Shown here: in pieces, positions 60 through 58,876 of the stretch
Layout: each line of letters begins with the position of its first letter
Position numbering within the stretch: the first letter of the stretch is position 1
Origin: Escherichia phage UE-S5a
Direction: 5' to 3' (one strand)
Sequence record: PP175015.1
DNA: 64,000 bases
Program-made: the position numbers and the translations under genes
The notes under the pieces: generated by a model
What the model was told of the DNA's origin: nothing
Seen by the model: only the letters and a program-made list of their open reading frames with translations
The model's database searches: none

Positions 60-2414
60 ATGAACGAAATGTTCTCACAAGGTGGTAAAGGCTCCACTGG
101 TATTCTTACCAACAAACAAGCCATTGCCCGTAAGTTTGGTGTTAAGCAGAATGAGGTTGTTTACTTTGCTGTAGGTGTAGACTTAGGGGAATACAAGGTC
201 ATTTATGATAAGACTACCCAGCGAGCTTACTCATTACCTGCAGACCTTGGTTCAGGGGTTACTGCTGTAAGCCTTAATACTGCCGGTGTGTTAGTTCACT
301 CTACTGGTAATGTTGACCTGGGTGCACTAGCTGTTTCACGAGGAGAGTTTATAACAGTCCCTGGGTCCTTCTCTTTGGGTTATGAGATTAAAGTAAAGAA
401 TGAATGTCTTGAATACCAGGGTGGGTTGTATCGATGGGATGGCGCACTGCCAAAGGTTGTAGATGCTGGGTCTGTTCCTGATATTGGTACAGGAAAGTGG
501 CTGAGCGTCGGTGATGCAGCCCTGCGCAGCCAGATTTCAGACCCGGATGGTGCGTCCAGTTACCCTGAATTGCAGATGGCAAGATGGCGTGATGAGGGTG
601 ATGTTCGAGGCTGGGGTGCTAAAGGGGATGGTGTAACAGATAGTACGGAGAATATAGCTGCTTCACTAAATTCTCAAAAAGCTGTCGTAGCATCAGACGG
701 TGTATTCTCTAGTTCTGGTATTAATAGTAATTACTGTAACTTAGACGGTAGAGGCAGTGGTGTACTAAGTCACCGTTCAAGTACAGGTAACTACTTAGTA
801 TTTAACAATCTACGCTCAGGTCGCTTAAGTAATATTACGGTAGAAAGTAATAAGGCGACCGATACCACTCAAGGGCAGCAGGTATCTCTTGCTGGTGGCA
901 GTGATGTTACTATAAGTGATGTTAATTTCTCAAACGTTAAGGGCGCTGGTTTCAGTTTAATCACATACCCTAATGATGCACCCTCTGATGGGCTTATGAT
1001 TAAAGGCATTCGAGGTAGCTACTCCGGCTATGCTACTAATAAGGCGGCTGGATGCATACATGCTGATTCCTCGGTTAACTCCCTCATAAATAACGTCATT
1101 GCTAAGAACTACCCTCAGTTCGGGGCTGTAGAACTGAAAGGTACAGCCAGTTATAACATAGTCAGCAATGTTATAGGGGCAGACTGCCAGCATGTAACTT
1201 ACAACGGTACAGAAGGGTCAATAGCTCCCTCTAACAACCTTATCAATGGGGTAGTGGCTAATAATCCTAAATATGCAGCGGTTGTTGCAGGCAAAGGTAG
1301 TACCAACTTAATCTCAGATGTGCTTGTAGATTTCTCAATCTCTGACGCTAGTCAGGCTCACGGTGTTACAGTAGAAGGCTCTGATAACGTAATAAGCAAT
1401 GTGCTTATGTCAGGATGTGATGGTACTAACTCTTTAGGGCAAGCTCAAACTGCTACAATTGCGCGCTTTATAGATACAGCTAATAACAACTATGCGTCTG
1501 TATTTCCTAGCTACAGTGCTACAGGTGTTATTACTTTCGAATCAGGTTCTACCCGTAACTTCGTAGAGGTAAAGCATCCGGGAAGGAGAAACGACCTTCT
1601 CAGTGCTACTGGTACTATTGAAGGTGCAGTTACTATTGACGGCACTAGTAATAGCAACGTAGTGCACGCACCTGCCTTAGGACAGTACATAGGTAGTATG
1701 TCAGGTCGGTTCGAATGGCGGATTAAGTCCATGTCACTTCCGTCAGGCGTTCTTACCTCGGCTGATAAATACAGAATGCTTGGGGATGGTGCTGTGTCAT
1801 TAGCTGTAGGCGGGGGTACTTCTTCTCAAGTTCGCCTATTTACTTCTGATGGTACTTCTCGGAAAGTATCACTCACCAACGGTAACGTGCGTCTTCCTAC
1901 CAGTAGCACAGGTTATTTGCAGTTAGGTTCTGATGCAATGACCCCAGATAGTACTAATACATACGCATTAGGTTCCGCAAGTAGAGCATGGTCTGGCGGT
2001 TTTACTCAATCAGCATTCACTGTTGTCTCAGATGCTAGGGATAAAACAGAGCCTCTTAATATCTCAGATGCTTTACTGGATGCTTGGTCTGAAGTTGACT
2101 TTGTGCAGTTTCAGTACTTGGACAGGATTGAGGAGAAGGGTGCAGACTCAGCCAGATGGCACTTTGGTATCATCGCTCAGCGAGCTAAGGAGGCTTTCGA
2201 ACGTCACGGCATAGATGCACATCGCTATGGCTTCCTGTGCTTCGACAGTTGGGATGATGTATATGAGGAAGATGCCAATGGCTCTCGTAAACTGATTACA
2301 CCAGCAGGTTCCCGCTACGGTATTCGTTACGAGGAAGTACTGATATTAGAAGCTGCGTTGATGCGGCGTACTATTAAGCGTATGCAGGAAGCATTAGCTG
2401 TTATGTCTAAGTGA
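60..2414 (+). CDS. Tail fiber/tailspike with C-terminal intramolecular chaperone (peptidase S74-like) domain; reading frame is open upstream to position 3, so the true start may lie outside the window
   Basis: 784-aa ORF; Gly/Ser/Thr/Asn-rich central region typical of beta-helical receptor-binding proteins; C-terminal VVSDARDKTEP...WHFGIIAQRAKEAFERHG matches the self-cleaving chaperone domain of endosialidase-type fibers; RBS AAAGAGG before ATG at 60. Confidence 0.7.
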   Translation: MNEMFSQGGKGSTGILTNKQAIARKFGVKQNEVVYFAVGVDLGEYKVIYDKTTQRAYSLPADLGSGVTAVSLNTAGVLVHSTGNVDLGALAVSRGEFITVPGSFSLGYEIKVKNECLEYQGGLYRWDGALPKVVDAGSVPDIGTGKWLSVGDAALRSQISDPDGASSYPELQMARWRDEGDVRGWGAKGDGVTDSTENIAASLNSQKAVVASDGVFSSSGINSNYCNLDGRGSGVLSHRSSTGNYLVFNNLRSGRLSNITVESNKATDTTQGQQVSLAGGSDVTISDVNFSNVKGAGFSLITYPNDAPSDGLMIKGIRGSYSGYATNKAAGCIHADSSVNSLINNVIAKNYPQFGAVELKGTASYNIVSNVIGADCQHVTYNGTEGSIAPSNNLINGVVANNPKYAAVVAGKGSTNLISDVLVDFSISDASQAHGVTVEGSDNVISNVLMSGCDGTNSLGQAQTATIARFIDTANNNYASVFPSYSATGVITFESGSTRNFVEVKHPGRRNDLLSATGTIEGAVTIDGTSNSNVVHAPALGQYIGSMSGRFEWRIKSMSLPSGVLTSADKYRMLGDGAVSLAVGGGTSSQVRLFTSDGTSRKVSLTNGNVRLPTSSTGYLQLGSDAMTPDSTNTYALGSASRAWSGGFTQSAFTVVSDARDKTEPLNISDALLDAWSEVDFVQFQYLDRIEEKGADSARWHFGIIAQRAKEAFERHGIDAHRYGFLCFDSWDDVYEEDANGSRKLITPAGSRYGIRYEEVLILEAALMRRTIKRMQEALAVMSK

Positions 2415-2492: not shown

Positions 2493-2521
2493 AAAACCCC
2501 GCTCAGGCGGGGTTTGTTTTT
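2493..2521. terminator. Bidirectional rho-independent terminator between convergent genes
   Basis: ataaaa-CCCCGC-tcag-GCGGGG-tttgttttt: GC stem flanked by A-run and T-run. Confidence 0.6.
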
Positions 2522-2539
2522 ATCTATTAATAATATTTC

Positions 2540-3166
2540 TTATATAGAGTTTACTGTTTGCATTGCCCTAATTGATACTGCTGTTAGGGTAATTACTTGT
2601 CCTGAGATATTAAACATACCTAACTGAATACCGTCTACCATGAAAGGGTCAGTTGAACCAAGTGTGTAAGTAGCCAGTACGTTATCTCTGTTAGCAATGT
2701 CTGTACCCTGTACTTTAACACTAGCATCTGAACCTACTATCGTAATTCCATTGGTTCGTCTTGTTTGTGTTCTCCATTCCCTTGCTGTACCTGCACCACC
2801 TGCAATAATTCCTGATATACGAACACTGAACATTACCTGGGTATTCCTGGTTCTAATGGGGAACTTAAGATTTCCTTCTTCAATTGTTAGTGCTGCTGTA
2901 CCTCCAGGTGATTTAGTTATCCCTGGTAATGAAAAGTAATTGAACCAGGATTGGTCATTTACTGCCTGGCTCCCGGTCCATGTATACAAGTCCAGAAGAA
3001 ATGTGTCTTCTAACTCTGTTGGTGGGAAAGGTAGTAGTTCTGGGGGGATCTCTGAGATGTTATTAGCAGAAACTATTCGTTCCCCATAACTTCCCACGAC
3101 CAACAATCCCCCCTTCATTTTGCACACAACATCCCTACCACTTTGGAAAATATCTTTAATAGACAT
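2540..3166 (-). CDS. Hypothetical protein encoded antisense to the late module
   Basis: Track ORF 2540..3193; start moved to second ATG (MSIKDIF...) preceded by GAGG at 6 nt; no recognisable motif. Confidence 0.45.
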   Translation of the reverse strand: MSIKDIFQSGRDVVCKMKGGLLVVGSYGERIVSANNISEIPPELLPFPPTELEDTFLLDLYTWTGSQAVNDQSWFNYFSLPGITKSPGGTAALTIEEGNLKFPIRTRNTQVMFSVRISGIIAGGAGTAREWRTQTRRTNGITIVGSDASVKVQGTDIANRDNVLATYTLGSTDPFMVDGIQLGMFNISGQVITLTAVSIRAMQTVNSI

Positions 3167-3290
3167 AGTTACCTCGCAGTTGATACCAGACACTATGTCT
3201 GGATGTATCCCATCATACTAAGTATTATCTAAGAGTCATCTTATGATACGACCCTATTGGGGTTCTTAACTTTACAACTACGGTAATATT

Positions 3291-3620
3291 ATGAATGAAT
3301 CGGGCGAACTGCTTCTAGTCAGACTGGAGGAACGATTGAAGACTCTGTTTGAGAATCAGACGAGAGACAGACAGGACCGTGAGAAACTGGAGGAAACTCT
3401 GGGAGAATTACGGGATTCAATCAATGACATAGGCAATAGACTAAAAAATGTGGAGGATAGCTTAGCTAAGAATGAACCTACTATTGAAGAGTTCATCACC
3501 ATTAAGCATAAAGTTGTTGGTGCTGGAATTTTTGGTAAGTGGGTATGGGCTGGAGCAGGTGCAATTATTGGTGTATTGGCTGCTGCAAGACGGGAGATAT
3601 TCGCATGGTTCGCAGGCTAA
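3291..3620 (+). CDS. Coiled-coil protein with C-terminal transmembrane helix (holin/antiholin-associated candidate)
   Basis: 109 aa; charged coiled-coil N-terminus, C-terminal VVGAGIFGKWVWAGAGAIIGVLAAA; sits at head of lysis cassette. Confidence 0.45.
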   Translation: MNESGELLLVRLEERLKTLFENQTRDRQDREKLEETLGELRDSINDIGNRLKNVEDSLAKNEPTIEEFITIKHKVVGAGIFGKWVWAGAGAIIGVLAAARREIFAWFAG

Positions 3621-3865: not shown

Positions 3866-4490
3866 ACAGAAACTTGCTGCAAAAGGTGGTGCAGTGGGAG
3901 GGGTTATCGCTGCTATTCTGGGGGCAGTGTTCTATATGGAAGGAGGTTATGTAAACAATCCTCGTGACCCAGGTGGGGAAACTAATCATGGTATTACCCA
4001 ATCAGTAGCTAAGACTCATAAAGAAGTTCTGGCTACTGAGTATGGTTGGGATGGTTCTATGAAGGGTTTATCTAAAGAGATGGCTGCTGAGATATACATT
4101 GATGACTATGTACTTAAACCTAACTTCGTAGCCTTCGCTGATATATCTCCTGCTGTAACGCATAAGCTAGTAGATGCTGGTGTTAATACTGGTGTAACCC
4201 GTCCTGCTAAGTGGTTGCAGATGTCTCTTAATGAAATGTCACGTAATGGCAAAGACTACCCTAAAATACAGGTTGATGGTAAAGTCGGTACAAGTACTGT
4301 TAATGCATATAAAGCATTACAGAAAAAACGGGGCAAAGTTGCAGCATGTCAGGTAATGATTAAGCTGCTTGATGCTAAACAACTGAACCACTATACCTCA
4401 TTAAACATGCCAGACTTTACGTATGGTTGGGTAGCTAACCGAATAGGCAATGTGCCACTGGAGGCATGTAATGAAGATGCTAATCTCTAA
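3855..4490 (+). CDS. Endolysin, N-acetylmuramidase (GH108 domain + peptidoglycan-binding domain), N4 gp61-like
   Basis: N-terminal EGGYVNNPRDPGGETNHGITQ is the GH108 signature; C-terminal region resembles PG_binding_3; RBS AAGGAAG. Confidence 0.8.
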   Translation: MKAKQKLAAKGGAVGGVIAAILGAVFYMEGGYVNNPRDPGGETNHGITQSVAKTHKEVLATEYGWDGSMKGLSKEMAAEIYIDDYVLKPNFVAFADISPAVTHKLVDAGVNTGVTRPAKWLQMSLNEMSRNGKDYPKIQVDGKVGTSTVNAYKALQKKRGKVAACQVMIKLLDAKQLNHYTSLNMPDFTYGWVANRIGNVPLEACNEDANL

Positions 4491-4977
4491 AGGTTGGCCT
4501 TATCTTCTGGTGGTGGTCCTTGGGGCCACCATTTACTTTTGGGGCAATTCCAATGGGCAGTCTACTGTTCAAAAGAAATGGGATGCCCAAAAGGTCGAAG
4601 ACCAAAAGGCAACGCAAAAATTACAGGACAAATACAATGCTCTCCAAAGAAACCATAGTTATGAAGTCGGGTTACTCACTTCCCGGTTGCAGACGGCTGA
4701 GAGTAATTACGCAAGCGAGCTTGCTCGCGTTAGCAGTGATTACGACAGCCGGATGCAACAGTCTGAAAGACGAGCATCGGTATATAAACGTCAAGCCGAA
4801 GCCGGAACCCTTGAGTGCAGAAGTCTTGCAAGCCATGCAGCCAGACTCGACAATAGTCTTGAAGAAGGCAGACGTTTGGTTGAAGAACTCCGGGCAACTG
4901 TTAGACTCCGTGACAGCCAACTAATTGAGTTGGGTAAACAGATTCAGGCTGACCGTAAACTTTTTGAACAGGAATAA
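4471..4977 (+). CDS. i-spanin (Rz-like)
   Basis: Start moved to ATG 4471 (GGAGG 6 nt upstream); N-terminal [24 protein letters not shown] followed by charged coiled-coil region; overlaps endolysin end. Confidence 0.6.
4661..4924 (+). CDS. o-spanin (Rz1-like lipoprotein) embedded in the +1 frame of the i-spanin gene
   Basis: Track ORF 4520..4924 trimmed to ATG 4661: [32 protein letters not shown] = signal peptide with lipobox-like TAGC, then short Pro-rich mature peptide. Confidence 0.55.
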   Translation: MKSGYSLPGCRRLRVITQASLLALAVITTAGCNSLKDEHRYINVKPKPEPLSAEVLQAMQPDSTIVLKKADVWLKNSGQLLDSVTAN

Positions 4978-4979
4978 CT

Positions 4980-7250
4980 ATGGAACACCAAGACACTTTT
5001 AAGCCTTTACCAGACCCGGCTCAATCAGAGAAGTTAACGGACTGGAAGAAGGAACCAAGTATCCAATTACTGAAGGGTGATTTGGAATCTGCTAAACCTG
5101 CTCACGATGCAATCATGGCACAGATTCGTGAGTGGAATGATTTAATGGAAGTAAAGGGTAAGGCTAAACCCCCAAAGGTTAAGGGACGCTCGCAAGTCCA
5201 GCCTAGACTGGTTCGCCGTCAGGCAGAGTGGCGTTATGCTCCATTGTCTGAACCATTCCTCTCGTCTAACAAACTATTTAAGGTAACTCCGGTTACTTTT
5301 GAAGATGAGTTAGCTGCACGCCAGAATGAGCTAGTTCTTAACTACCAATTCCGTACTCAGCTTAATAAAGTAAAACTGGTAGATGATTACGTGCATAGTG
5401 TCGTAGATGACGGTACTGGTATTGCTCGTATTGGTTGGGAACGTAAGACAGTTAAGATTAAAACAGAAACACCAGTCTTCCAGTTGTACCCAATTGAGAA
5501 CCAGGAACAAGCAGATATTCTTCAGCAGGCTTTGCAGCTTCAGGCAGAGAATCCTCGTGAGTATGATGAAACGATGCCAGAAGATATTAAGGAAGCTGTT
5601 AACTACTTCAATGAAACTGGAGAAGCTACTTATGCAATTCAGACAGGGGTCACTGAAGTAGAAGTAGAAAAAGCACTGGTTAACAGACCTACCGTTGAAA
5701 TGCTTAATCCTAATAACGTAGTTATTGACCCAAGCTGTAATGGTGATTTGGACAAGGCTCTTTATGCAGTCATCTCATTTGAGACTTGTAAAGCAGACCT
5801 CATGAAAAACAAGGACCGTTACCACAACCTGGATAAGATTGACTGGGAAAGTTCCAGTCCTATGACTGACCCAGACCATGAAAGTAAAACTCCAGGTGAC
5901 TTCCAGTTTAAGGATGCACTTCGCAAGAAAGTAATTGCTTATGAGTACTGGGGATTCTACGACATTAACGATGATGGTTCGCTGGAACCAATTGTTGCTA
6001 CCTGGATTGGTTCTACTCTTATTCGTATGGAGAAGAACCCATTCCCAGATGGTAAGTTACCATTGGTAGTTGTTCCTTATATGCCTCGTAAACGTGAACT
6101 CTATGGTGAAGCTGATGCTGAATTGCTAGGAGATAACCAAGCAATTCTTGGTGCAACCATGCGTGGGATGATTGACCTGTTGGGCCGAAGTGCAAATGGT
6201 CAACGTGGTTATCCTAAAGGGATGTTAGATACCCTGAACCGTCGTCGATACGATGATGGACAAGACTACGAATATAACCCAATGCAGGGCAATCCTAGTC
6301 AGGCCATTATGGAACACAAGTTCCCTGAGTTACCCCAGTCGGCAATAGTAATGACTCAGATGCAAAACCAGGAAGCAGAAGCACTAACGGGTGTTAAAGC
6401 ATTCTCGGGTGGTGTAACTGGTGAAGCTTACGGAGATGTAGCTGCTGGTATTCGTGGTGTACTAGATGCAGCATCCAAACGTGAGATGGCAATCCTTCGT
6501 CGATTAGCTAAGGGTATGGCAGACATTGGTACTAAGATTTGTGCAATGAATGCTGTGTTCTTATCTGAGAAAGAAGTAGTACGTATTACTAACGAGCAGT
6601 ACGTAGAGATTAACCGTGAAGACCTTAAAGGTAATTTCGACATTGAAGTTGATATTAATACTGCTGAGATTGATAACCAGAAATCCCAGGACTTGAGCTT
6701 CATGGTTCAAACGTTAGGTAATACGGTTGACCAGACTATTACGTTATCTCTTGTAGCTAAGATTGCAGAACTTAAACGTATGCCAGACCTTGCTCATGAG
6801 TTACGTACATGGCAACCACAACCAGACCCTATGGAAGAACAGCTTAAGCAATTGGCAATTCAGAAAGCACAGCTTGAGAACGAAGAGCTGCAAAGTAAGA
6901 TTGCACTCAATATGGCTAAGGCTAAAGAGGCTGCTTCTAGTGGTGACCTTAAAGATCTGGATTATCTGGAACAGGAATCTGGTACTAAACATGCTCGTGA
7001 CATGGAAAAACAAAAAGCACAATCCCAAGGAAACCAAAACCTTCAGATAACTAAGGCGTTGACAACACCTACTAAAGAAGGTGAAACTACCCCCAACATA
7101 TCTGCTGCTGTTGGATATAACGCTTTGACTAACGGGAACTCTATACCAGAACGTGACTTAGCTGCACAACAAGACCCAGCTTATTCACTTAGTTCCCAAT
7201 TCTATGACCCTAGCCAAGACCCAGCATCGGCTCTTGGCATGAACTTGTAA
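4980..7250 (+). CDS. Portal protein (N4 gp59-like)
   Basis: 756 aa; size and position between lysis cassette and capsid genes match N4 portal; acidic low-complexity C-terminus. Confidence 0.7.
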
Positions 7251-8864: not shown

Positions 8865-10067
8865 ATGTTAAACTATAACGCTCCAATTGACGGTCAGAAA
8901 TCTAGCATTGATGGTGCTGGTTCCGATCAGATGAATACCTTTTACTGGCTGAAGAAAGCTATTATTCAGTCTCGTAAAGACCAGTACTTCATGCCACTGG
9001 CTAACACCATTAACATGCCTAAGAACTATGGTAAGACTGTTAAGGTGTATGAGTACGTTCCACTGCTCGACGATAAGAACATTAACGACCAGGGCATTGA
9101 TGCTAATGGTGCTACCATCGTTAATGGTAACCTGTATGGTTCTTCTAAAGACGTAGGTAACATCACTTCCAAACTGCCTCTGCTGACAGAGAATGGTGGT
9201 CGTGTTAACCGTGTAGGCTTTACCCGTCTGTCTCGTGAAGGCTCCATCCATAAGTTCGGTTTCTTCTACGAATTTACCCAAGAGTCCCTGGACTTTGATT
9301 CTGATGATCAACTGAAAGAACACCTGTCTCGCGAACTGATGAACGGTGCTGTACAGTTGACTGAAGCTGTTCTCCAGAAAGACCTGCTTGCTGCTGCTGG
9401 TACTGTATTGTATGCAGGTGCTGCTACTTCTGATGCTACCATCACCGGTGAAGGTTCTACTCCGTCTGTAGTTTCTTATAAGAACCTGATGCGTCTTGAC
9501 CAGATTCTTACTGAGAACCGTACCCCGACTCAGACTACTATTATCACTGGTTCTAAACTGACTGATACCAAAGTACTTGGTGGTACTCGTGTAATGTACG
9601 TTGGTTCTGAATTGGTTCCAGAACTGAAAGCGATGAAAGATCTGTTCGGTAACAAAGCATTCATCGAAATTCAGCACTATGCTGATGCCGGTACTCTGAT
9701 GAATGGTGAAGTTGGTTGTATCGACAAGTTCCGTATTATCCAGGTTCCTGAGATGCTGCATTGGGCAGGTGCTGGTGCTCAGGCTACTTCTAACCCAGGC
9801 TATCGTTCTACTATGGTTGGTGGTCAGGAACACTACGACGTATTCCCGATGCTGGTAGTTGGTGATGACTCCTTCTCTACCATTGGCTTCCAGACTGATG
9901 GTAAGTCTGTTAAGTTCTCCATCATGACTAAGATGCCTGGTAAAGAAACTGCTGACCGTAATGACCCGTATGGTGAAACTGGCTTCAGTTCTATCAAGTG
10001 GTACTACGGTATCCTGGTTAAACGCCCAGAACGTCTGGCTATGATTAAGACTGTTGCTCCTCTGTAA
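8865..10067 (+). CDS. Major capsid protein (N4 gp56-like)
   Basis: 400 aa; high-usage codons; followed by a strong terminator; position matches N4 MCP. Confidence 0.75.
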
Positions 10068-55085: not shown

Positions 55086-55919
55086 TTATTCTACAACAGT
55101 AATAGCGATGGTTACATCGACCTTACCGTTGGTAACTACTACAGAAGTAGCTTCACCAGCAGCCACTGGTTTAACCGTCAATACGTTACCGGCAATGGTA
55201 GCCGTAGCACGGGCAGAATCTGGGGTAGTCTTAATAGACAAAGTACCAGCAGATGAACCAACAGGCATAGCAGCAATGGTTACAGTCTTACCGGCAGCAG
55301 TATCATCAGCAACAGACAGAGCCAGTGAATCAGGAGTAGCTACCAGTGAGCTTGCTTCATAGTAGCCTACTGCCAGCAACGACGTATCTTCTACAGTGGT
55401 TCCATTGGCATCAGTAACAATCACTTTATAAGTACCAGCAGAAGCAGCGGTTACGTCATTAAGGGTTAATGTTGCAGTAGCAGCAGATGGGTTAGTACTA
55501 GAGCTAATATCAGTGAATGCTGCACCAGCAGTATCAGCTTTGAACTGCCATTTATAAGTAAATGGTGCTTTACCGCCTGCTACATCAACATGCCAGTTAA
55601 TATCTTCGCCTTCGATAGCAGAGATTACACGAGGCAGTTTAGTAGCAACAGTCAGTCGTGGAGTAGCTTTCATGTCAATAGAGATGGCTTGCATATCCAC
55701 GATGTTGTTAGGCCAGAAGCCTGCTTCAGCAGGGTTTTTAGCAGAACGTTTATACAGCAGATCACGTACACCGTGAAAGATAACTAAACTATCCGGGTAA
55801 GTGGCATCCGGATGCACAAAAGTACCTACCTCTACGGAACCACCCGGGATAGAACCCCCTGCATCCAGTACAGTTGCAACATTGGTGGTTTTGTTAAAAC
55901 CTACTTTTAAAGTTGGCAT
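55086..55919 (-). CDS. Ig-like-domain capsid decoration-like protein (N4 gp17-like by position)
   Basis: Track ORF extends into a terminator; ATG 55919 preceded by GAGG; C-terminal Thr/Ala/Val-rich Ig-like repeats; sits just downstream of RNAP II genes as in N4. Confidence 0.5.
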   Translation of the reverse strand: MPTLKVGFNKTTNVATVLDAGGSIPGGSVEVGTFVHPDATYPDSLVIFHGVRDLLYKRSAKNPAEAGFWPNNIVDMQAISIDMKATPRLTVATKLPRVISAIEGEDINWHVDVAGGKAPFTYKWQFKADTAGAAFTDISSSTNPSAATATLTLNDVTAASAGTYKVIVTDANGTTVEDTSLLAVGYYEASSLVATPDSLALSVADDTAAGKTVTIAAMPVGSSAGTLSIKTTPDSARATATIAGNVLTVKPVAAGEATSVVVTNGKVDVTIAITVVE

Positions 55920-55964
55920 ATGAATTTCCTCATAAGTAAATAGCAGGATTAGTATACATGACAT

Positions 55965-55995
55965 GTAAAAAAATAAACCCTCCGTTAAGAGGGTT
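55965..55995 (-). terminator. Rho-independent terminator (minus sense)
   Basis: AACCCTC-cgttaa-GAGGGTT preceded on + strand by A-run. Confidence 0.5.
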
Positions 55996-56191
55996 AGTTG
56001 TTTACACAGTAGATAGCAAAAGCTATCCATCCTGCCATTACAAAGCATCCTAGTGAGTATGCTCCATAGTAGCAGTAAGCAAACTTAGACTTGTGGGCAC
56101 GAACTATCGTAGCCAGAATCAGTACAGATAAAACTATCAGTATTAGCTGAGAGATTACTTCAAAATTGATAAGCATAGTTGCTACCTCCAA
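55994..56191 (-). CDS. Small membrane protein
   Basis: 65 aa, two hydrophobic helices. Confidence 0.35.
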   Translation of the reverse strand: MEVATMLINFEVISQLILIVLSVLILATIVRAHKSKFAYCYYGAYSLGCFVMAGWIAFAIYCVNN

Positions 56192-58823: not shown

Positions 58824-58876
58824 CGCTTATTCTCCTAAATGTGATTAATAACCAAAAGCTGCGGAGCAGCTATTAC

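What the first reader, a model, noticed from the sequence alone, without database searches (positions are those of the whole stretch)
2540..3166. Gene transcribed antisense inside the late structural module
A 208-aa ORF with a good RBS lies on the opposite strand between the tail fiber gene and the lysis cassette, bounded by a bidirectional terminator. Oppositely oriented genes in late modules are often morons (host-range, exclusion or defence cargo).
Basis: seen in the sequence. Interest (0 to 1): 0.45.

Follow-up and report, generated by a model that had tools for sequence, protein, structure and literature searches.

The report
Accessory virion knob protein gene
The antisense ORF is a real, selected but dispensable gene of an N4-like coliphage. 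It joins a short N-terminal segment shared with a known capsid decoration protein to a TNF/C1q-like knob, so it is most likely a virion-surface adhesin rather than defence cargo.

Summary
The window is Escherichia phage UE-M3 (Gamaleyavirus, N4/G7C-like). ORF 2540-3166(-), with its GAGG RBS and a downstream hairpin terminator, is exactly as described.

It is a real gene. Its own frame has the best codon score of the six, dN/dS is about 0.15, and the published 'G-9 protein' found by mass spectrometry of UE phage preparations is this ORF.

It has two modules:
- Residues 1-47 are homologous (hhalign 98%) to the N-terminus of Shigella phage B2 gp45. B2 gp45 is a capsid decoration trimer seen by cryo-EM.

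The gene sits tail-to-tail with the tailspike gene in two Schitoviridae subfamilies. It is replaced as a single-gene cassette between near-identical phages. It has been deleted or eroded in most Gamaleyavirus records.

Best reading: a dispensable, capsid- or virion-anchored trimeric knob that aids host binding. It behaves like a moron in distribution only. It is an old resident being lost, not defence cargo. Capsid attachment, timing of expression and ligand are all untested. This is a new member of a known kind, of moderate-to-low interest.

The parts
2540..3166 (-). Complete CDS, 208 aa plus stop (UEM3_012; the 'G-9 protein' / 'tail needle knob' of the UE-M3 record)
   Evidence: phrog_17779 E 4.7e-113. 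Best codon score of the six frames. dN/dS 0.15. The only UE-M3 versus UE-M6 difference is R11K, which matches the paper's 'position 11' (PMC11927229).
3026..3166 (-). N-terminal module, aa 1-47, homologous to the N-terminus of the B2 decoration protein gp45. Putative virion (capsid) anchor. Low AF2 confidence.
   Evidence: PDB profile search 9d82_J E 4e-8. hhalign probability 98.2%, E 5e-14. Reciprocal PHROG hit of B2 gp45 aa 1-46. pLDDT below 50 for aa 1-53.
2549..3004 (-). C-terminal TNF/C1q-like jelly-roll knob, aa 55-206, with the invariant motif GGAGTxREWRTQTRR
3172..3175 (-). Shine-Dalgarno GAGG, 5 nt upstream of the ATG
   Evidence: read directly from the sequence
3186..3202 (.). Perfect 7-bp palindrome with a 3-nt loop (CCAGACA-CTA-TGTCTGG) in the 5' leader. 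The deletion junctions of relatives lie at its edge. It is not an N4 vRNAP-type promoter hairpin.
   Evidence: The phage's own early-promoter hairpins have a GGA loop.
3212..3239 (-). Only sigma-70-like promoter candidate for the ORF (-35 ATGACT, 16 nt, -10 TATGAT). It lies in an intergenic block that is nearly invariant in all relatives.
   Evidence: This is a consensus match only; function is not shown.
2494..2515 (.). GC-rich hairpin terminator between the convergent tailspike gene and the ORF
2536..2536 (.). Recombination boundary. Homology of every relative compared ends here, 4 nt past the ORF stop. Beyond it lie the variable tailspike gene and its 3' flank.

Best explanation
The ORF encodes a non-essential virion-surface protein built from two modules.

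- A roughly 45-residue N-terminal segment tethers it to the particle. The capsid is the most likely site, by analogy with the homologous N-terminus of the B2 decoration protein gp45.
- After a short proline-rich linker comes a C-terminal TNF/C1q-like jelly-roll knob. It presumably trimerises and projects outward as an auxiliary adhesin for host-envelope or environmental glycans, in the manner of head fibres or Hoc.

The gene would be transcribed on its own from the shared divergent intergenic region and stopped at the hairpin it shares with the tailspike gene.

Shown here: the gene is real and under purifying selection; both module homologies or folds; cassette-like exchange; repeated loss.

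Inferred only: attachment site, trimer state, ligand, late timing of expression.
For: - N-terminal module matches B2 Dec gp45. gp45 is a capsid-bound homotrimer seen by cryo-EM (PMC11654681).
- B2 gp45 and gp46 (the ORF's orthologue) are adjacent and share this module.
- The rest of gp45 is a phi29 head-fibre C-terminus, so the shared part is the plausible capsid-binding part.
- The MCPs of UE-M3 and B2 are 58% identical.
- Knob fold.
- The same knob is fused to collagen next to tail-fibre genes, to tail-fibre repeats, and to a GDSL esterase. In Uetakevirus PAT1 it lies between the portal and MCP genes.
- It was found in the virion-preparation proteomes of all four UE phages.
- Single-gene allelic replacement: B2 versus SP154 have portal 99.9% and gp45 98% identical, but this gene only 57%.
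- Loss by deletion in relatives shows it is dispensable.
Against: - The B2 virion mass-spectrometry table lists gp45 but not gp46.
- The UE proteomes contain 44-56 proteins, including polymerases and lysis proteins, so detection there is not specific.
- The Bp4 record gives no confirmation note for orf14, whereas a neighbouring entry has one.
- UE-M3 also encodes an N4 gp17-like Ig decoration protein. Its first domain sits on every quasi-3-fold axis in N4, so the site could be occupied.
- The N-terminal module is modelled with low confidence.
- Which gp45 residues touch the capsid could not be read with these tools.
- No promoter class could be assigned.
Confidence: 0.5

Rival explanations
1. 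Tail-associated accessory receptor-binding protein. The N-terminal segment docks on the tail or the branched tailspike complex, not on the capsid. The knob acts as a third host-recognition module beside the two tailspikes.
For: The gene is always adjacent to the tailspike genes. The knob fold is best known from tail tips: the Sf6 needle and cyanophage short fibres. The knob is fused to tail-fibre repeats in other phages. The UE authors treated it as a receptor-binding protein. It shows cassette-like variability, as RBPs do.
Against: The only structurally placed relative of the N-terminal module sits on the capsid. The ORF is 91% identical between UE-M3 and Bp4 although their tailspike catalytic parts differ, so it does not co-vary with the tailspike. 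No density or mass-spectrometry signal was reported for B2 gp46 (the ORF's orthologue) at the modelled B2 tail.
Confidence: 0.22
2. Non-structural moron. The protein acts inside or on the infected cell (exclusion, defence or counter-defence, host takeover), and its detection in virion preparations is contamination.
For: Patchy distribution and frequent loss. Atypical codon usage. Its own transcription unit on the strand of the early/middle genes. Absent from the B2 virion table. Rapid allele turnover could also reflect an arms race.
Against: No PADLOC, Pfam or NCBIfam hit. No long hydrophobic stretch by eye. Both modules have relatives only among virion surface proteins. No vRNAP-type early promoter lies upstream. 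In Ithacavirus it follows the decoration gene in a lysis/late cluster.
Confidence: 0.13
3. Decaying relic. The ORF is still open in UE-M3 but no longer has a function.
For: It is deleted, frameshifted or truncated in many relatives and metagenome copies.
Against: dN/dS is 0.10-0.27 in all the pairs compared (undefined for one pair because dS is saturated). There are 77 invariant columns across 22 sequences down to 57% identity. Peptides were detected.
Confidence: 0.05

Closest known systems
Shigella phage B2 gp46 and its Ithacavirus homologues (e.g. the SP154, TR2 and FSL SP-058 copies; uncharacterised; some mislabelled 'protease')
   Same: Full-length homologues, 52-68% identical, with the same two modules and the same position convergent with the tailspike gene.
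   Different: In Ithacavirus the gene is part of a longer co-oriented lysis-gp45-gp46-gp47 cluster. In Gamaleyavirus it stands alone on the opposite strand, and there is no gp45 partner in the genome.
Shigella phage B2 decoration protein gp45 (PDB 9d82; 'head fiber protein')
   Same: The N-terminal ~45 residues are homologous. Both are small proteins of T=9 N4-like phages whose MCPs are 58% identical.
   Different: gp45 continues into a phi29 head-fibre-like C-terminal segment (PF11133). The ORF continues into a 150-residue jelly-roll knob. Capsid binding is shown only for gp45.
Sf6 gp9 tail-needle knob (PDB 3rwn), and the wider TNF/C1q-like knobs (PRD1 P5, BclA, C1q, TNF ligands)
   Different: Only 15% identity. 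No Pfam or PDB sequence-level match. No coiled-coil needle precedes the knob, so the record's name 'tail needle knob' describes a fold, not a role.
Outward-projecting capsid accessories: phi29 gp8.5 head fibre, T4 Hoc
   Same: The proposed logic is the same: a dispensable capsid-anchored protein that displays a binding domain. The dispensability and adhesive roles of these proteins are stated from general knowledge; Hoc's role is mentioned in PMC11768535.
   Different: Different folds and anchors. The function of the ORF has not been tested.

Membership tests
phrog_17779 (function unknown) | Full-length profile match | tested here: met
   E 4.7e-113, residues 1-207 against profile positions 4-207. 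B2 gp46 and the PAT1 and ZPAH14 proteins hit the same family.
B2 gp45-type decoration / head-fibre protein | Homologous N-terminal ~45-residue module | tested here: met
   PDB profile search E 4e-8. hhalign probability 98.2%, E 5e-14, 45 columns. BLASTP E 9e-8.
B2 gp45-type decoration / head-fibre protein | C-terminal phi29 head-fibre-like segment (PF11133) | tested here: not met
   gp45 aa 55-99 hits PF11133. The ORF has no Pfam hit and carries a jelly-roll knob instead.
B2 gp45-type decoration / head-fibre protein | Binds the capsid lattice as a trimer | not testable with these tools
   Known for gp45 from cryo-EM. No multimer or complex modelling and no virion map were available for this protein.
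Sf6-type tail needle knob | Jelly-roll knob fold | tested here: met
Sf6-type tail needle knob | Sequence-family membership, and location at the end of a gp26-like coiled-coil needle | tested here: not met
   No Pfam family at E<=0.1. No PDB sequence hit other than 9d82 at E<=10. Only ~50 residues precede the knob, and they match a decoration protein.
TNF/C1q-like trimeric knob superfamily | Ten-strand jelly roll at the C-terminus of a fibrous or anchoring segment | tested here: met
   Homologues carry collagen or fibre repeats upstream.
TNF/C1q-like trimeric knob superfamily | Homotrimer formation | not testable with these tools
   Only a monomer model could be made.
Anti-phage defence / exclusion moron | Match to a known defence protein family, or a membrane/secretion signal | tested here: not met
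   PADLOC gave no hits at E<=1. NCBIfam gave none. No long hydrophobic stretch seen by eye in the sequence; no predictor was run.
N4 early (vRNAP) transcription unit | Upstream hairpin promoter with a 3-nt GGA-type loop on the template strand | tested here: not met
   The phage's own early-type hairpins (58864, 63226, 63908) have GGA loops. The hairpin at 3186-3202 has CTA/TAG.

The most novel reading that the evidence does not exclude
N4-like phages carry a second, capsid-borne host-recognition layer. A decoration-protein anchor displays an interchangeable TNF/C1q-like lectin knob, and the knob is swapped between phages as a single-gene cassette. It would tune adsorption or environmental retention independently of the tailspikes.
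Probability: 0.25. Interest if true: 0.55.

Novelty: new member of a known kind. Interest (0 to 1): 0.33.

Why it matters
The gene family (phrog_17779) is listed as of unknown function. In databases it is named inconsistently: 'tail needle knob', 'protease', 'hypothetical'. Linking its N-terminus to a structurally placed decoration protein gives a concrete, testable placement on the virion. It also suggests that therapeutic N4-like coliphages differ in a surface adhesin that is usually ignored when host range is compared. The deletion scars, and the fragment carried into Ackermannviridae, are useful markers of how tailspike cassettes move between phage families.

Tried and rejected
- Pfam, NCBIfam and PADLOC scans of the ORF gave nothing.
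- A search for a second copy of the N-terminal module, or a gp45-like gene, in UE-M3 found none.
- An N4 vRNAP-type early promoter upstream was rejected, because the loop sequence differs from the phage's own GGA-loop hairpins.
- A search for 8-mers shared between the ORF's upstream region and other intergenic regions, to assign a promoter class, found only isolated chance 8-mers.
- The supplementary proteome tables of the UE paper are not held, so peptide counts could not be checked.
- The Mimir124 paper says nothing on this gene.
- 'Simple recent transfer from Ithacavirus' was considered. Identity to B2 gp46 (53%) equals the portal divergence (52%), but identity to the SP154 allele (68%) exceeds it. 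Vertical descent plus allele exchange therefore fits better than one insertion.
- The 217-aa GTG start was rejected (no RBS; homologues start at the ATG).

Full report
**Identity of the window.** The first 6 kb are 100% identical to Escherichia phage UE-M3 (PP301342.1; Schitoviridae, Enquatrovirinae, Gamaleyavirus; N4/G7C-like). Window position 1 is record position 9674. On the + strand lie the tailspike gene (60-2414; Tail_spike_N and Peptidase_S74 domains; annotated K5 lyase), then the gp63 homologue, holin, endolysin, spanin, portal, capsid genes and the giant vRNAP. From about 27 kb onward the replication, middle and early genes are on the - strand.

- The ORF runs from ATG 3166 to TAA 2540 on the - strand and encodes 208 aa.
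- GAGG lies 5 nt upstream of the ATG.
- A GC-rich hairpin at 2494-2515 separates it from the convergent tailspike gene. It folds well on both strands (z -5.1 and -3.8). The U-tract is good on + and short on -.
- Coding signal: the ORF frame has the best codon-usage score of the six frames (0.007 against -0.18 to -1.03). It is below the phage's long genes (0.20-0.66), and GC3 is lower.
- dN/dS is 0.15 against Bp4 at dS 0.29, and 0.10-0.27 in the more distant pairs, where dS is largely saturated.
- An alignment of 22 homologues down to 57% identity has 77 invariant columns, including GGAGTxREWRTQTRR.
- The UE-phage paper (PMC11927229) reports a 'G-9 protein' in the particle proteomes of all four phages, with one substitution at position 11. 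The only UE-M3 versus UE-M6 difference in this ORF is R11K, so G-9 is this ORF.

**What the protein is.** Pfam, NCBIfam and PADLOC give nothing. PHROGs places it in phrog_17779, function unknown. Two modules emerge.

2. *N-terminal module.* A profile of the family hits one PDB chain only, 9d82_J 'B2 Dec Gp45', over residues 1-47 (E 4e-8). This is confirmed reciprocally by PHROGs and by hhalign (98.2%, E 5e-14). B2 gp45 is the 99-residue homotrimeric capsid decoration protein modelled in the cryo-EM structure of Shigella phage B2 (PMC11654681). Its residues 55-99 match the C-terminus of the phi29 head fibre. In B2 the next gene, gp46, is the full-length homologue of our ORF and shares the module with gp45.

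UE-M3 has no gp45-like gene and no second copy of the module. It does have an N4 gp17-like Ig decoration gene. The major capsid proteins of UE-M3 and B2 are 58% identical.

**Evolutionary behaviour.**
- 65 phage records share the adjacent gp63-endolysin block, but only about 12 carry the full ORF, counting duplicate RefSeq/GenBank entries and one copy split into two pieces.
- ECBP1, EC1-UPM and ZQ2 have the same deletion, joining window ~3178 to 2642. It removes the RBS, the start and about 175 codons. St11Ph5 shows a different, more eroded scar.
- Frameshifted and truncated copies exist in isolates and metagenomes.
- The intergenic block 3188-3290 is nearly invariant even where the gene is gone.
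- All homology stops at 2536, the edge of the variable tailspike cassette.
- In Ithacavirus the gene occupies the same tail-to-tail position beside the tailspike.
- B2 and SP154 are 99.9% identical in the portal and 98% in gp45, but only 57% in this gene. The divergent block coincides with the gene.
- UE-M3 is 68% identical to the SP154 allele and 53% to the B2 allele. The portal is 52% identical.

So the gene is old, dispensable, under purifying selection where kept, and exchanged as alleles. This is the behaviour of host-interaction surface proteins.

**Expression.** The phage's N4-type early-promoter hairpins (GGA loop; at 58864, 63226 and 63908) are recognisable. The palindrome at 3186-3202 upstream of the ORF has a different loop. 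The only candidate promoter is a sigma-70-like site at 3239-3212. No motif shared with other intergenic regions was found. Timing of expression is therefore unknown.

**Interpretation.** The most likely reading (about 0.5) is a dispensable virion-surface protein. A decoration-type N-terminal anchor, most plausibly on the capsid, displays a trimeric TNF/C1q-like knob that acts as an auxiliary adhesin.

Evidence against:
- B2 gp46 is absent from the published B2 virion table.
- The UE proteomes are unspecific.
- N4-type gp17 already occupies the quasi-3-fold sites in N4.

Rivals are a tail-associated RBP (0.22), a non-structural moron (0.13) and a functionless relic (0.05).

The 'inserted defence/exclusion cargo' idea is not supported.

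**Novelty.** This is a new member of a known kind (phage knob/fibre or decoration proteins). The fold-level label already exists in the GenBank record. The link to the decoration-protein anchor was not mentioned in the papers read here.

Noticed in passing
window 2536-2815; locus L007 (Escherichia phage A221, Ackermannviridae) 3975-4253 and 6127-6608: About 155-kb Ackermannviridae phages (A221, RPN242, PC3, PH4, SKML-39, LHE287 and others) carry an unannotated, start-less fragment of this ORF (aa ~117-208, up to 95% aa identity). In A221 it lies tail-to-tail with a tailspike gene, and the intergenic terminator region and the 5' ~480 nt of the tailspike gene are 85-87% identical to Bp4. This looks like a tailspike cassette moved from a Gamaleyavirus-like phage into another phage family, with a hitchhiking pseudogene piece that gives the direction of transfer.
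   Followed up: partly
loci L004 (B2) 5016-5600 versus L011 (SP154): Between two Ithacavirus genomes that are about 92-100% identical in the flanks, only the gp46 gene is replaced by a 55-68% identical allele. It is a single-gene hypervariable cassette.
   Followed up: yes
window 58864, 63226, 63908 (loop centres): There are three hairpins with a GGA loop on the + (template) strand. Two are preceded by CATCCATA or GTCCATA, closely resembling N4 vRNAP early promoters as recalled from the literature. They are probably this phage's early promoters.
   Followed up: partly
window 3186-3202: A perfect 7-bp/3-nt-loop palindrome sits exactly at the edge of the independent deletions that removed the ORF in relatives. 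It is mostly retained in them. Its role (operator, 5' mRNA hairpin or deletion hotspot) is unknown.
   Followed up: partly
window 3291-3620 (+): The gp63 homologue (109 aa) is annotated in different records as 'tail needle protein gp26', 'tail length tape-measure protein' or hypothetical. By eye it has a charged, helix-like N-terminal half and a hydrophobic C-terminal stretch. It heads the lysis cassette, so the structural names look wrong (phrog_5211, function unknown).
   Followed up: no
window 60-2414 and record PP301342.1 5901-9548: UE-M3 carries two capsule-type tailspikes in tandem, annotated endosialidase and K5 lyase. The second has the TSP1/gp66-type N-terminal docking domain and a Peptidase_S74 intramolecular chaperone. 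This is a branched dual-specificity adsorption apparatus, as in G7C.
   Followed up: no
window 55086-56048 (-): An N4 gp17-like 'Hoc-like' Ig decoration gene lies among the early/middle genes. The UE paper detected this protein in only two of the four near-identical phages, whereas the ORF studied here was detected in all four.
   Followed up: no
window 4520-4924 (+) inside 4450-4977 (+): There is an out-of-frame ORF embedded in the Rz-like spanin gene. Relatives annotate an embedded Rz1-type gene here (St11Ph5 gp60.1).
   Followed up: no
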